Part shown: positions 10,469 to 15,360 of the stretch, piece by piece
How positions within the stretch are numbered: position 1 is the stretch's first letter
How the letters are laid out: every line of letters starts with the position of its first letter
Program-made: the position numbers and the translations under genes
Virus record (IMG/VR): IMGVR_UViG_3300012665_000204
Location: 1 to 38,227 of that record
Source: a virus
Lineage: Duplodnaviria; Caudoviricetes
Length of the DNA stretch: 38,227 nt
Direction: 5' to 3' (one strand)
The notes under the pieces: model-generated
What the model saw: only the letters and a program-made list of their open reading frames with translations
What the model was told of the DNA's origin: nothing
Database searches by the model: none

Positions 10469-10666
10469 TTATAAGACCTCCTCTATAGAATTGTAACCTA
10501 ATAAGTATAAATTATTTTTAAGCTTTTTTAGTGCTCTTTTTTCAATCTCACATACAGCTTGATGACTGATCCCCATCATAGTGCCAATTTGATCATAAGT
10601 GTAAGTATCAACCCTTCGGCAAGCTTTACAAGTGTAATACGGATCGCATTTACAAGCTTCATTCAT
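10469..10666 (-). CDS. Stand-alone sigma70 region 4-like HTH protein
   Basis: YTYDQIGTMMGISHQAVCEIEKRALKKLK matches the sigma 4.2 pattern; N-terminal CKC...CKAC. Confidence 0.8.
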   Translation of the reverse strand: MNEACKCDPYYTCKACRRVDTYTYDQIGTMMGISHQAVCEIEKRALKKLKNNLYLLGYNSIEEVL

Positions 10667-12302: not shown

Positions 12303-12500
12303 TTAAATTGCTTTTACTTTCCTGAGATCTATTACGGCTTGATCTAAGTGCTCAATGGTGCTCTCAATGTAATCGTATGTAGGCAGATTACCCCTTAAGT
12401 CCTTAATGGTCTCTGAAGCGTCTCTAAGCAAGGACTGAAGATAAATAATTCTACCTAATGAAGACATTTTGTTTAAATCAATCTCTGTTCTATATTTCAC
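12303..12500 (-). CDS. Early hypothetical protein
   Basis: GTG start with AGGAG SD. Confidence 0.75.
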   Translation of the reverse strand: MKYRTEIDLNKMSSLGRIIYLQSLLRDASETIKDLRGNLPTYDYIESTIEHLDQAVIDLRKVKAI

Positions 12501-12720
12501 GTTTTGCTCCTTTTGCGTTAATTAAATCAAAATAAGGACTTACTAATTTAATTGCTTCGAATACTGAATTGTTATTTTTGATTGCTCTACCTGTTTTACC
12601 TTTAAGCGTCCAGTGGTTTGTAATTGCGTCTAACTCTAATATTTTGCCGTTATCTAGAAAAAACTTAGTGTATTCGGTGTCATCTTCTCTAGTGATATTC
12701 CAGTGGTTTGTAATCTTCAT
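12490..12720 (-). CDS. First early gene, hypothetical protein
   Basis: TAAGGA SD before ATG 12720 (MKITNHW...). Confidence 0.75.
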   Translation of the reverse strand: MKITNHWNITREDDTEYTKFFLDNGKILELDAITNHWTLKGKTGRAIKNNNSVFEAIKLVSPYFDLINAKGAKREI

Positions 12721-12733
12721 TTTACTTTCCTTA

Positions 12734-12752
12734 TTAAGAATGATTCTCATTT
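12734..12752. promoter_or_regulatory. Fur box-like site
   Basis: Minus strand AATGAGAATCATTCTTAAT, 7-1-7 inverted repeat. Confidence 0.6.
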
Positions 12753-12781
12753 ACTAATTGTATTGCTTGCTCCGATGACTA

Positions 12782-12810
12782 ATAGTCTCATGCCATTATT
12801 AGGTCGTCAA
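12782..12810 (-). promoter_or_regulatory. Early sigma70-type promoter
   Basis: TTGACG-N17-GACTAT with extended TG. Confidence 0.55.
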
Positions 12811-12842
12811 TACCAATTACGGGAATTTCAGGGTATTTTTTA

Positions 12843-12879
12843 ATTGTATTTAACTATCGCATTGATTAATAAAATCTAT
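12843..12879. promoter_or_regulatory. OxyR-like binding site
   Basis: ATTG-N7-CTAT-N7-ATTA-N7-CTAT. Confidence 0.55.
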
Positions 12880-13026
12880 CACCCTGAGAGCCTTATACTT
12901 ATTGAGTTACTAGAGATCTCTAAACTAATGAGCCTGAATATCATCTCTTACTATGAAGGCTCCTAAGCCCCTTTAAAGCCCTTGTAATTGATTGTCATAT
13001 TAAACCCATGATTCTTTGAAGTTATC

Positions 13027-13219
13027 TAGTGAGTATGTACTAACTTAAGTACTGTATGTCTATCCAGTACTGTATAGGTTACTGTATAGGATCCTAAATA
13101 GCCCTATACACTTACCCTTTGTAGGGTCTCTAAAGTAAGTACTCACTAACCCTTAGCCTTCGGAGTACATGTAAGTAAGTACTCACTAACGTAACTCCGA
13201 AGTGACTGCTCACTAACTT
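13027..13219 (+). repeat. Four quasi-palindromic repeats resembling SlmA-binding sites
   Basis: Cores at 13029-13040, 13135-13146, 13175-13186 and 13202-13213, each followed by TAAC; AAGTAAGTACTCACTAAC exact twice. Confidence 0.75.
13050..13069. promoter_or_regulatory. LexA (SOS) box, Beta/Gammaproteobacterial type
   Basis: TACTGTATGTCTATCCAGTA, 17/20 to TACTG(TA)5CAGTA. Confidence 0.75.
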
Positions 13220-13361
13220 TGATGGGGGCTAGGGGTGACCTTCACAGAATTCTTTAACGGAACCCACAGAGATTCCTAAAAAGAAAAAACAAGCAATAGC
13301 TCTAAAGTAACTAAAAAGCAAGAAAAGTGACCTCTAACGTGACAAAAGAGAATCCCTTAAG

Positions 13362-13374
13362 AATCAACAGCTTA
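13362..13374 (+). promoter_or_regulatory. IHF consensus site
   Basis: AATCAACAGCTTA = WATCAANNNNTTR. Confidence 0.55.
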
Positions 13375-13526
13375 GTAACGACACTGTCCCCTTTAATGAT
13401 ATACAAATAAGTATAGTGTAAGTGAATGTCGGAGATGCCCACCCGAAGGGCTGTCTAAGATGTGCTAGGTGTGCTCCCCGAAGGGGCTACTAAGAGAAGA
13501 CATACTAAATAAATCTTACAAAGTAC

Positions 13527-13555
13527 TTGACAATGAAGAACTATTCTGTTATAAT
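13527..13555 (+). promoter_or_regulatory. Consensus sigma70 promoter for the packaging operon
   Basis: TTGACA-N17-TATAAT with extended TG. Confidence 0.9.
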
Positions 13556-13583: not shown

Positions 13584-13711
13584 ACACTAAGGGTGTTTTT
13601 ACTTAAGTAGATATAACTTATATTGTTATAACATTGATAGTTATAACTTAATAAGAAAAACAACTAATAAAGAAATACTCCTATAAGTTAACTTTAAAGT
13701 ATAGTAGGGCT
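13584..13711 (+). promoter_or_regulatory. Bipartite leader element, copy 2
   Basis: ACACTAAGGGTGTTTTT (13584-13600) and AAGTATAGTAGGGCT (13697-13711). Confidence 0.75.
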
Positions 13712-13742: not shown

Positions 13743-14117
13743 ATGTCTGAACTTGTCGTAAAACCTAAAGCGAAGATGGGTCGTCCTCGTAAAGAAGACC
13801 TTAAGAAAGCTAAAGCACCACTAGGTCGTCCTAAGAATGATACCGGTCGCTTAGCTGAATTTAAACAAAGACTCTTAGGAACATCAGGCAGTGCTGTCAT
13901 CGAGAAGATTATCCAGATAGGTCAGAACGATGACCATCCCGGACAGATGGCTGCATTGAAGATGGCAATGGATAGAATCTTACCGTTGTCGATGTTTGAG
14001 AAAGATGCTAAGGGTCAACGTAATGCCATCCAGATTAACATCACTGGTATTGGTGAAGCTAAGATTGAAACAGCTTCTGACTATGTCGATGAAGTAGTGG
14101 ACGAAGATGAAGCTTGA
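13743..14117 (+). CDS. terS: Terminase small subunit (putative)
   Basis: Directly upstream of terL; GRP AT-hook-like motifs; ALKMAMDRILP. Confidence 0.75.
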   Translation: MSELVVKPKAKMGRPRKEDLKKAKAPLGRPKNDTGRLAEFKQRLLGTSGSAVIEKIIQIGQNDDHPGQMAALKMAMDRILPLSMFEKDAKGQRNAIQINITGIGEAKIETASDYVDEVVDEDEA

Positions 14118-15360
14118 CTTTGAACTACTGCCTTGGCAGCAAGAGGTCTACAAAGACCCTACAAGATTTAAGGTTATTGTTGCTGGTCGTCGCTGTGGTA
14201 AGTCAAGATTGTCTGCCATCAGTTTGATTGTCGAAGGACTAAAGTGTCCTAAAGGTTCAGCAGTAATGTATGTAGCTCCTACGCAGGGGCAAGCAAGACA
14301 GATTATTTGGGATGTCCTCATGGACTTAGGAAGAGAAGTAATTGCGTCTTCCCACGTTAACAACATGGACATCACCTTAGTAAATGGTGCAAAGATTTAT
14401 GTCAGAGGCTCAGATCGTCCTGATACACTTCGTGGTGTCAGTTTAACGTATCTAGTGTTAGACGAGGTAGCTGACATTAAGAGTGAGACTTGGGAGAAGG
14501 TCCTACGTGCTGCACTGTCAGACAAAAAAGGGAATGCCTTATTTATTGGCACACCAAAGGGACGTAACTGGTTTTACGATATGTACAATATCGGTCTTGA
14601 AGAAGAAGACAAAGATTGGAAGTCTTGGCACTTCACCACCAAGGACAATCCGCTGATTGATCCTGAAGAGATTGAAGGTGCAAGAAAGAGTTTAAGTTCT
14701 TTTGCATTCAAGCAAGAATTTGAAGCAAGCTTTGATAACGCTGGTACAGACGTATTCAAAGACGCTTGGTTGAAGTATGGTGAAGAGCCTACCAACGGTG
14801 CTTACTACATCGCAATTGACTTAGCTGGCTTTGAGAATATGAACAACTCAGCCGAGCGTAAGAAGCGATTAGATAAAACAGCTATCGCAGTAGTTAAAGT
14901 AGATGAAGACGGTGAGTGGTTTGTTAAGAAGATTGAAACTGGTAGATGGGATATTCAAGACACTGCCAGACGCATCCTAAAGAACATAGCGGAGTTTAAA
15001 CCGTTAGCAGTAGGGATAGAGCGAGGAAGTCTTAAGAACGCTGTGTTGCCCTATCTGAGCGATCTGATGAGGTCTAACAATGTGTACTGTCATATTCAAG
15101 ACTTGACACATGGTAATAAGAAAAAGACTGAACGTGTGATCTGGGCATTACAAGGACGATTTGAGCATGGTAAGGTTGTCCTCAACGAAGATGAAGATTG
15201 GGATGAGTTTAAGGATGAGTTCTTAATGTTCCCAACACCACAAGTGCATGATGACTTGATTGACGCTTTAAGCTACATTGACCAACTAGCGGTTACGTCT
15301 TATTTCTCAGACGATAACTCCGATGAATATGAACCTTTGGATATGATAAGTGGATACTAA
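14107..15360 (+). CDS. terL: Terminase large subunit
   Basis: AGRRCGKS, LRG, VLDE, GTP, IDLAG, HDDLIDALSY. Confidence 0.96.
   Translation: MKLDFELLPWQQEVYKDPTRFKVIVAGRRCGKSRLSAISLIVEGLKCPKGSAVMYVAPTQGQARQIIWDVLMDLGREVIASSHVNNMDITLVNGAKIYVRGSDRPDTLRGVSLTYLVLDEVADIKSETWEKVLRAALSDKKGNALFIGTPKGRNWFYDMYNIGLEEEDKDWKSWHFTTKDNPLIDPEEIEGARKSLSSFAFKQEFEASFDNAGTDVFKDAWLKYGEEPTNGAYYIAIDLAGFENMNNSAERKKRLDKTAIAVVKVDEDGEWFVKKIETGRWDIQDTARRILKNIAEFKPLAVGIERGSLKNAVLPYLSDLMRSNNVYCHIQDLTHGNKKKTERVIWALQGRFEHGKVVLNEDEDWDEFKDEFLMFPTPQVHDDLIDALSYIDQLAVTSYFSDDNSDEYEPLDMISGY

What the first reader, a model, noticed from the sequence alone, without database searches (positions are those of the whole stretch)
12734..13374. 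A docking array of host regulator sites (Fur, OxyR, LexA, SlmA x3-4, IHF) in the divergent non-coding region
Seen: within 640 bp lie close matches to five different proteobacterial DNA-binding consensus sequences, in a phage with no repressor or integrase. Only the Fur- and OxyR-like sites are near a recognisable promoter; the LexA and SlmA-like sites are over 200 bp from any promoter I can see, which argues against simple operator function. Inference: a protein-free host-manipulation module. Options are (a) decoys that titrate repressors once the genome is amplified (iron uptake, SOS recombination) and activate SlmA, (b) coating of the incoming DNA end with host proteins for nuclease protection or entry ratcheting, or (c) sensing of host iron/redox state to gate early transcription. 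I know of no description of such a composite array, but have not searched.
Basis: partly seen in the sequence, partly recalled or inferred. Interest (0 to 1): 0.85.

Follow-up and report, generated by a model that had tools for sequence, protein, structure and literature searches.

The report
Host-protein docking array in terminal repeat
A freshwater phage packs look-alike docking sites for several unrelated bacterial proteins into and beside the predicted short repeat at its genome ends, and its relatives fill the same slot with different sites, so these phages likely coat their first-entering DNA end with borrowed host proteins.

Summary
The sites are real. The Fur, OxyR, LexA and SlmA matches are the genome's best and beat shuffles (P 0.0005, 0.0125, <0.0005, 0.001). 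IHF alone is borderline, but it is position-fixed in relatives and belongs to the packaging signal. The new result is the location. A conserved motif occurs twice, 170 bp apart (13083, 13253), around a G-run. Contig ends and cultured Zobellviridae termini point to these as terminase cuts, giving a predicted terminal repeat at 13093-13262 that holds three SlmA sites. In 182 dereplicated relatives, host-type sites (SlmA, Fur, DnaA, LexA, NtrC, sigma-54, OxyR) lie inside the repeat in 96 (shuffled 1.8), left of it in 49 and right of it in 3. They form 27 combinations and are mostly far from promoters. Fur and OxyR here flank the early promoter and look regulatory. Best reading: a swappable coat of borrowed proteins on the leading end (0.4). 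Main rival: SlmA/DnaA cell-cycle sabotage (0.3). Binding, host and function are untested. My searches found nothing in print, but this scan noted SlmA and composite arrays before on other DNA.

The parts
12490..12720 (-). First early gene (76 aa from the ATG at 12720, Shine-Dalgarno just upstream); no Pfam or PHROG family
12733..12754 (.). Fur-like box in the leader of the first early gene, about +21 to +42 from the inferred start site, abutting the Shine-Dalgarno sequence
   Evidence: same place in L002
12782..12810 (-). Inferred early sigma-70 promoter: -35 TTGACG, 17 bp, extended -10 TG-n-GACTAT; missed by the strict scanner
   Evidence: sequence; similar in L002, L084, L087; not listed
12843..12879 (.). 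OxyR-like (LysR-family) four-block site, about -68 to -104 of the early promoter
   Evidence: shared with L084 and L087; 1-mismatch versions in five more distant relatives
13029..13040 (.). Degenerate SlmA-like site (9 of 12); better matches at the same place in L002 and L087
13050..13069 (.). LexA-like SOS box, followed by two further half-sites; no promoter found nearby
   Evidence: kept in L002 and L087
13083..13106 (+). Motif M2, predicted terminase cut for the right genome end at 13092|13093
   Evidence: 105 of 126 loci; held-out 30 of 49 against 1-3 shuffled; contigs starting at offset +10
13093..13262 (.). Predicted direct terminal repeat, 170 bp (inferred, not mapped by reads)
13135..13213 (.). 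Three SlmA-like sites (13135, 13175, 13202) inside the predicted repeat
   Evidence: PMC3020112 section 8
13224..13236 (+). G-run, the family-wide landmark; near-identical to the C-run 19 nt inside the mapped left end of cobavirus ICBM2
13253..13283 (+). Motif M1 (second copy of M2) and fixed A-run; predicted cut for the left, first-entering end near 13262|13263 (range 13255-13274)
13362..13374 (+). IHF-like site at a fixed distance on the terminase side; likely part of the packaging signal
13527..13555 (+). Perfect sigma-70 promoter (12 of 12) for the terminase and virion genes
13743..15360 (+). Small ORF in the terminase small-subunit position (identity inferred) and terminase large subunit

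Best explanation
This stretch is the predicted genome-end region of a lytic podovirus-like phage, and its variable part is a swappable array of host-type DNA sites that likely loads borrowed host proteins onto the end that would enter the cell first, likely slowing or masking attack on that naked end before any phage protein is made. Shown: the sites, their enrichment, their confinement to the interval between two copies of one motif plus the leader next to it, and their exchange between relatives. Inferred: that the two motifs are terminase cuts; that this end enters first (T7-like analogy: early genes read away from it); that host proteins bind; that binding protects. In this genome SlmA would sit on three sites 42-120 bp from the right cut and 49-128 bp from the left cut, and LexA just inward. 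Fur and OxyR at the early promoter are best read as an added regulatory layer (iron-replete repression, peroxide input). IHF is best read as part of packaging.
For: Strict host-type site inside the predicted repeat in 96 of 182 loci (shuffled 1.8), in the leader in 49 (3.2), on the terminase side in 3 (2.4). Replicated on 77 loci not used for discovery: SlmA 21/0/0, Fur 31/5/0, DnaA 37/15/0 sites inside/left/right. 27 non-empty combinations mixing repressors, activators, an initiator, a division factor and a sigma factor, so identity seems to matter less than occupancy. Sites inside the repeat are rarely near a sigma-70-like promoter: SlmA 0 of 76, DnaA 4 of 73, Fur 5 of 40, LexA 0 of 10, NtrC 0 of 9. 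Repeat length tracks site number (rho 0.64); SlmA spacing peaks at 22 bp. L103 and L104 share an identical TerL row but differ in array. Ends: 4 of 20 left contig ends score best at M2 offset +10; 6 of 8 right ends fall 38-46 nt past a G-run; cultured ICBM1 and ICBM2 ends lie 19 nt from such a run, and the Pecta and CVT22 records open in an M2-like motif. VpV262 has six sigma-54-like sites just inside its left end (shuffle mean 0.06), which ties such arrays to the leading end and not to the repeat as such.
Against: No binding or protection data. 84 of 182 repeat interiors lack a strict known site; some hold only simple repeats, and 60 of 182 loci have none in repeat or leader, so a coat is not universal. 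Sites start a median 50 bp from the cut and leave room for a nuclease to load; RecBCD is reported to push bound proteins off (recalled). The terminase side may lack sites only because packaging proteins need it, so the region could simply be the only free non-coding space. ICBM1, ICBM2, RIO-1, ICP2 and Pecta show no convincing array at their ends. The six right-end contigs are not family members by M2 score. No raw reads exist to map this phage's own ends. The host is unknown.
Confidence: 0.4

Rival explanations
1. Protein-free host sabotage that depends on the identity of each site: after replication, hundreds of SlmA sites activate SlmA throughout the cell and block division; DnaA boxes titrate the initiator; LexA boxes relieve SOS repression.
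For: Tandem SBS on a multicopy plasmid cause a lethal division block in E. coli (PMC3573117, passages; SlmA was about 4x overproduced in that selection). SlmA and DnaA are the two classes that expand into long tandem arrays. Tandem SBS occur in about 390 IMG/VR stretches against 2 for the reversed control, many in other phage groups. Site variation matches measured SlmA specificity. A Comamonas SlmA is 45% identical with the helix-turn-helix largely kept.
Against: Needs a separate story for each protein. Titrating the activator NtrC or sigma-54 has no clear gain, and Fur is probably too abundant for 1-2 sites per genome (recalled). Does not by itself explain the confinement to one side of the G-run.
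Confidence: 0.3
2. Host-state sensing: the sites regulate early transcription (or gate replication or packaging, as Spo0A does at phi29 ends).
For: Here Fur lies in the first leader and OxyR just upstream of the early promoter. Left-of-cut sites are near promoters more often: LexA 8 of 14, OxyR 4 of 10. 15 of 16 sigma-54-like sites inside the repeat face the early genes (few loci). Precedent: PMC2731898 (abstract).
Against: Most sites inside the repeat are far from any sigma-70-like promoter. SlmA is not a signal sensor in E. coli (PMC3020112 passages: its sites are not in promoters). Probably true for the Fur and OxyR sites only.
Confidence: 0.15
3. A role in end processing: bound host proteins act as a roadblock or bridge during terminal-repeat duplication, terminase cutting or pairing of the two ends.
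For: SlmA sites are almost wholly inside the repeat (55 of 57; 21 of 21). No RNA polymerase family was found among 57 ORFs, so the T7 way of marking the junction (recalled) is unavailable.
Against: Many sites lie outside the repeat (leader, 49 of 182), as do all six in VpV262. Some repeats carry only simple-sequence filler.
Confidence: 0.1
4. Sites for a phage protein, or neutral tandem filler that resembles host sites by chance.
For: The phage encodes a small HTH protein. One frequent palindrome (AGGG-n4-CCCT) has no assigned owner. Enriched dyads also occur on the terminase side.
Against: Seven unrelated host consensus sequences are each matched far above shuffles and reversed-motif controls. 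The SlmA logo follows the host protein's position-by-position tolerance. No SlmA homologue in the phage.
Confidence: 0.05

Closest known systems
Phage T5 injection-stop region (Repeat Region 3, eight DnaA boxes; Davison, bioRxiv 10.1101/866236: abstract, section 3.3.3 and passages read)
   Same: Clustered host-protein sites in non-coding DNA of a terminal repeat; function proposed, not proven.
   Different: In T5 the boxes are one kind in a fixed layout near the end of first-step transfer (about 8% of the genome); the preprint has no whole-word hit for LexA or Fur. Here the repeat is about 100-350 bp, the sites lie within about 300 bp of the tip, and at least seven kinds are exchanged.
Short direct terminal repeats of Zobellviridae (ICBM1, ICBM2, VpV262; PMC6775973, passages)
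   Same: Two convergent arms with the ends in the divergent non-coding gap; G+C-rich run near the 5' end of the repeat; similar length (159-173 bp against 170 predicted).
   Different: No host-site arrays are mentioned in the passages read; no Zobellviridae record appears among the listed top TerL, capsid or polymerase hits.
Chromosomal SlmA-binding sequences (PMC3020112, section 8 and passages; PMC3573117, passages)
   Same: Same 12-bp palindrome, same tolerated substitutions, similar flanks to the laboratory oligonucleotide (PMC7468209, section 12).
   Different: Dispersed on the chromosome, tandem and often 22 bp apart here; on a phage that encodes no SlmA.
Spo0A boxes of phi29 and Nf (PMC2731898, abstract and section headings only)
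   Same: A lytic phage carries host-regulator sites at early promoters and replication origins.
   Different: One regulator with a shown role; here many interchangeable ones, mostly away from promoters.
IHF site of lambda cosB (recalled)
   Same: IHF-like site at a fixed distance from the cut on the terminase side.
   Different: Terminal repeat rather than cohesive ends (inferred).

Membership tests
SlmA-binding sequence (SBS) | 12-bp palindrome; strict positions 1, 2, 4, 5; purine at 3; pyrimidine preferred at 6 | tested here: met
   89 distinct sites: position 1 G 0.97, 2 T 0.96, 3 G 0.61/A 0.23, 4 A 0.92, 5 G 0.83, 6 T 0.68/C 0.32
SlmA-binding sequence (SBS) | Host encodes SlmA with the same specificity | tested here: inconclusive
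   Host unknown; one Comamonas SlmA keeps most of the helix-turn-helix; its 373-kb record has 0 exact sites and 0 controls
SlmA-binding sequence (SBS) | Binding by SlmA and activation against FtsZ | not testable with these tools
   needs binding and cell assays
Fur / OxyR / LexA operators | Match to consensus above chance and recurrence in relatives | tested here: met
   consensus recalled; OxyR may be another LysR-family protein
Fur / OxyR / LexA operators | Placed to control a promoter | tested here: inconclusive
   Yes for Fur and roughly for OxyR in this genome; not for LexA here; 5 of 40 Fur sites inside repeats; promoters are inferred
Short direct terminal repeat (T7/cobavirus type) | Physical ends at both boundaries | tested here: inconclusive
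   Supported by contig ends and cultured analogues; no raw reads for this phage
Zobellviridae | Two-arm genome, no RNA polymerase, T7-like replication genes | tested here: met
   (also a ribonucleotide reductase, as in cobaviruses)
Zobellviridae | Core proteins group with family members | tested here: not met
   Listed top hits are other groups, all under 60% identity; no joint tree was built, so this argues against filing it there, not against similar ends
T5 injection stop signal | Long terminal repeat, paired DnaA boxes in inverted repeats | tested here: not met
   No exact DnaA box in this genome; predicted repeat 170 bp

The most novel reading that the evidence does not exclude
A large group of aquatic phages has evolved a protein-free, plug-in module at the genome tip: any tight-binding host protein (SlmA, DnaA, Fur, LexA, NtrC, sigma-54 holoenzyme) is recruited to cap the incoming linear end against nucleases and end-sensing defences, and SlmA or DnaA versions double as cell-cycle blockers once the DNA is amplified.
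Probability: 0.35. Interest if true: 0.9.

Novelty: new variant of a known kind. Interest (0 to 1): 0.72.

Why it matters
How a linear phage genome survives the first seconds in the cytoplasm without a cap protein is an open question (raised for T5 in bioRxiv 10.1101/866236, passage). Mapping exchangeable host-site arrays to base-level terminal coordinates makes it testable with short synthetic DNAs and with cultured VpV262. If the SlmA rival holds, non-coding phage DNA alone would block host division. The array also hints at the host class of uncultured phages, and the G-run/M1/M2 rule predicts genome ends in circular metagenomic contigs.

Tried and rejected
Read-based terminus mapping: only Logan contigs were served, none holding half the words; uninformative. 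Host identification failed: one genome-contig hit, a 35-kb contig binned as Sphingobacterium and probably misbinned; DUF1289 homologues carry no organism; no centre was available for a class-wide genome search. DNA similarity to cultured phages: only chance hits; VpV262 and CVT22 ends match only themselves. Rfam: two matches far below gathering score. CRP-like and FNR-like sites are not convincingly enriched (2 against 1.9 and 7 against 2.4; FNR 0 in replication). The IMG/VR 'direct terminal repeat' label is a 234-nt assembly overlap inside the RNR gene, not the biological repeat. An entry ratchet as main role was rejected by reasoning. The TerL tree is the quick version; the careful run did not finish, and label changes were not counted formally. 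Rows dropped: 179 loci with enough flank gave 140 after dereplication, and 14 with off-peak spacers were removed; of 219 new loci, 73 were duplicates and 69 lacked M2. Dereplication used the left side only, so right-side counts share more descent. Searches used a simpler 2-mer block shuffle. Literature searches that found no description: (listings only); subscription papers and bioRxiv supplements were not visible, and the DTR alignment in the PMC6775973 supplement was not opened.

Full report
Context. The window is a complete 38.2-kb virus record. Replication and early genes (family-A polymerase, primase-helicase, exonuclease, RNR) read leftwards; terminase, portal, capsid and tail genes read rightwards. 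The finding lies in the roughly 1-kb gap between the two arms. No cultured phage is close (all listed hits under 60% identity). The host is not known. LexA-type and SlmA-type sites point to Beta- or Gammaproteobacteria, and the freshwater runs with small word shares would fit Burkholderiales; this is inference.

Observation. All sites are present and, except IHF, are the best in the genome and unlikely in shuffles. The SlmA consensus is from PMC3020112 (passages and section 8), the DnaA box from bioRxiv 10.1101/866236 (section 3.3.3); the others are recalled.

Relatives. TerL and TerS-position searches gave 155 loci. A G-run followed about 43 nt later by an A-run was found in 125 of 156 (window included); many of the rest start to the right of it. 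It persists down to 53% TerL identity. Among 12 close relatives the sequence right of the G-run is conserved and the sequence left of it is a mosaic. Adding an unbiased G-run scan gave 126 dereplicated loci. Loci with a site in the 400 nt left of the G-run, against the shuffled mean and the 200 nt on the right: SlmA 22, 1.4, 0; Fur 15, 0.1, 2; OxyR 11, 0.6, 0; LexA 12, 0.2, 0; NtrC 11, 0.2, 0; DnaA 22, 0.3, 0; sigma-54 10, 0.6, 0; IHF 16, 3.6, 43. A de novo dyad count recovers LexA-, Fur-, SlmA-, NtrC- and LysR-type dyads plus an unassigned AGGG-n4-CCCT palindrome. On the quick TerL tree SlmA arrays occur in separate well-supported clades, and near-identical TerLs carry different arrays. Across IMG/VR, tandem SlmA sites occur in about 390 stretches against 2 for the reversed control; 54 of 120 sampled have a G-run nearby, 50 of the 54 on the same side as here.

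The genome end. A second motif, M2, lies 74-317 nt left of the G-run in 105 of 126 loci; a profile trained on one set finds it in 30 of 49 held-out loci against 1-3 in shuffles. The same profile's best hit on the right falls at +26 to +32 in 50 of the 58 loci scoring above 5 bits, so M1 and M2 are direct copies; their spacing is 102-349 nt, 170 here. Of 20 contigs that begin left of the G-run, 4 score best as starting at M2 offset +10 (L473, L545, L570 and the doubtful L512); three of 13 in a later scan start at +8 to +11 with moderate scores. Of 8 contigs that end right of a G-run, 6 end at +38 to +46, but none is a family member by M2 score. Cobaviruses have 159-173-bp repeats mapped by PacBio with a conserved G+C-rich 5' part (PMC6775973, passages); their ends lie 19 nt from a run nearly identical to this one. 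The Pecta and CVT22 records open in an M2-like motif upstream of a G-run; how those records were opened was not checked. I infer a terminal repeat at 13093-13262, with the left cut uncertain within 13255-13274.

Placement. In 105 loci SlmA (55 of 57), DnaA (36 of 46) and sigma-54 (13 of 19) sites are inside the repeat; OxyR (10 of 11), NtrC (13 of 15) and LexA (9 of 12) are left of it; Fur is split 9 to 8. In 77 new loci the inside bias holds for SlmA, Fur and DnaA, and LexA (7 to 4) and NtrC (7 to 1) are also mostly inside, so the zone split for these two is not stable. Pooled, 96 of 182 interiors, 49 leaders and 3 right sides carry a strict site, in 27 combinations, with 60 loci empty. Inside sites are seldom near a sigma-70-like promoter. 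Of 84 interiors without a strict site, 50 have a loose hit (21.6 in shuffles) and some are simple repeats. VpV262 carries six sigma-54-like sites just inside its left repeat and CVT22 a LexA-like box in its first 200 nt; ICBM1, ICBM2, RIO-1, ICP2 and Pecta show no array.

Mechanism. The occupied zone is the first few hundred bases that would enter the cell, if entry follows the T7 pattern. The mix of repressors, activators, initiator, division factor and sigma factor suggests that occupancy matters more than identity, so I favour a borrowed-protein coat that slows or hides the end (0.4). Against it: many relatives lack sites, the sites leave the tip free, and the region may just be the only spare non-coding DNA. 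Identity-specific sabotage (0.3) has the best experimental precedent, since tandem SBS on a multicopy plasmid block division (PMC3573117, passages). Regulation (0.15) probably holds for Fur and OxyR here. End processing (0.1) and phage-protein or neutral readings (0.05) trail. The first three can coexist.

Known or new. Host sites at phage ends are known for T5 (DnaA boxes) and phi29 (Spo0A; PMC2731898, abstract only). Six searches (listings only) found no description of SlmA sites on phages or of exchangeable arrays in short terminal repeats. This scan has noted SlmA arrays (15 findings) and composite arrays with a similar end-coat idea on other genomes; these are unchecked AI notes and not support.

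Noticed in passing
L282-L401, L415-L653: The G-run plus A-run element matches about 2000 IMG/VR stretches with a sharp 43-nt spacer peak (44 of 120); with M1 and M2 it may serve to predict termini in circular contigs.
   Followed up: partly
L030-L079 repeat interiors; L316, L416, L650: Unassigned palindrome AGGG-n4-CCCT (40 of 182 interiors, 31 leaders), sometimes next to a -35 box or between back-to-back -35 boxes; owner unknown, resembles LuxR-family response-regulator boxes (recalled).
   Followed up: partly
L404:173-346 (Vibrio phage VpV262): Six sigma-54-like sites in both orientations just inside the left terminal repeat of a cultured phage; not annotated in the record.
   Followed up: partly
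L098, L333, L342, L346, L354: NtrC-like sites about 150-250 bp from sigma-54-like sites; could be real nitrogen-regulated promoters.
   Followed up: no
window 10469-10666 (-): 65-aa sigma70-region-4 HTH protein, the only clear phage DNA-binding regulator; candidate owner of an unassigned palindrome.
   Followed up: no
window 13743-14117 (+): The small ORF before terL has two GRP motifs resembling AT-hooks near its N-terminus and no Pfam or PHROG family.
   Followed up: no
window 13430-13480 and 13597-13660: Two short CCGAAGGG hairpin-like repeats kept in close relatives, and a 34-nt-arm imperfect inverted repeat after the late promoter.
   Followed up: no
L098, L107, L354, L481, L503, L637: Another repeated palindrome type (GACT-n4-AGTC / TGAC-n6-GTCA) fills repeats that lack known sites.
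   Followed up: no
window 17138, 22986, 32407, 33142, 36388 (+), 33913 (-): E. coli-type Chi octamers, 5 on + and 1 on -; may only reflect Ala-Gly-Gly codons.
   Followed up: no
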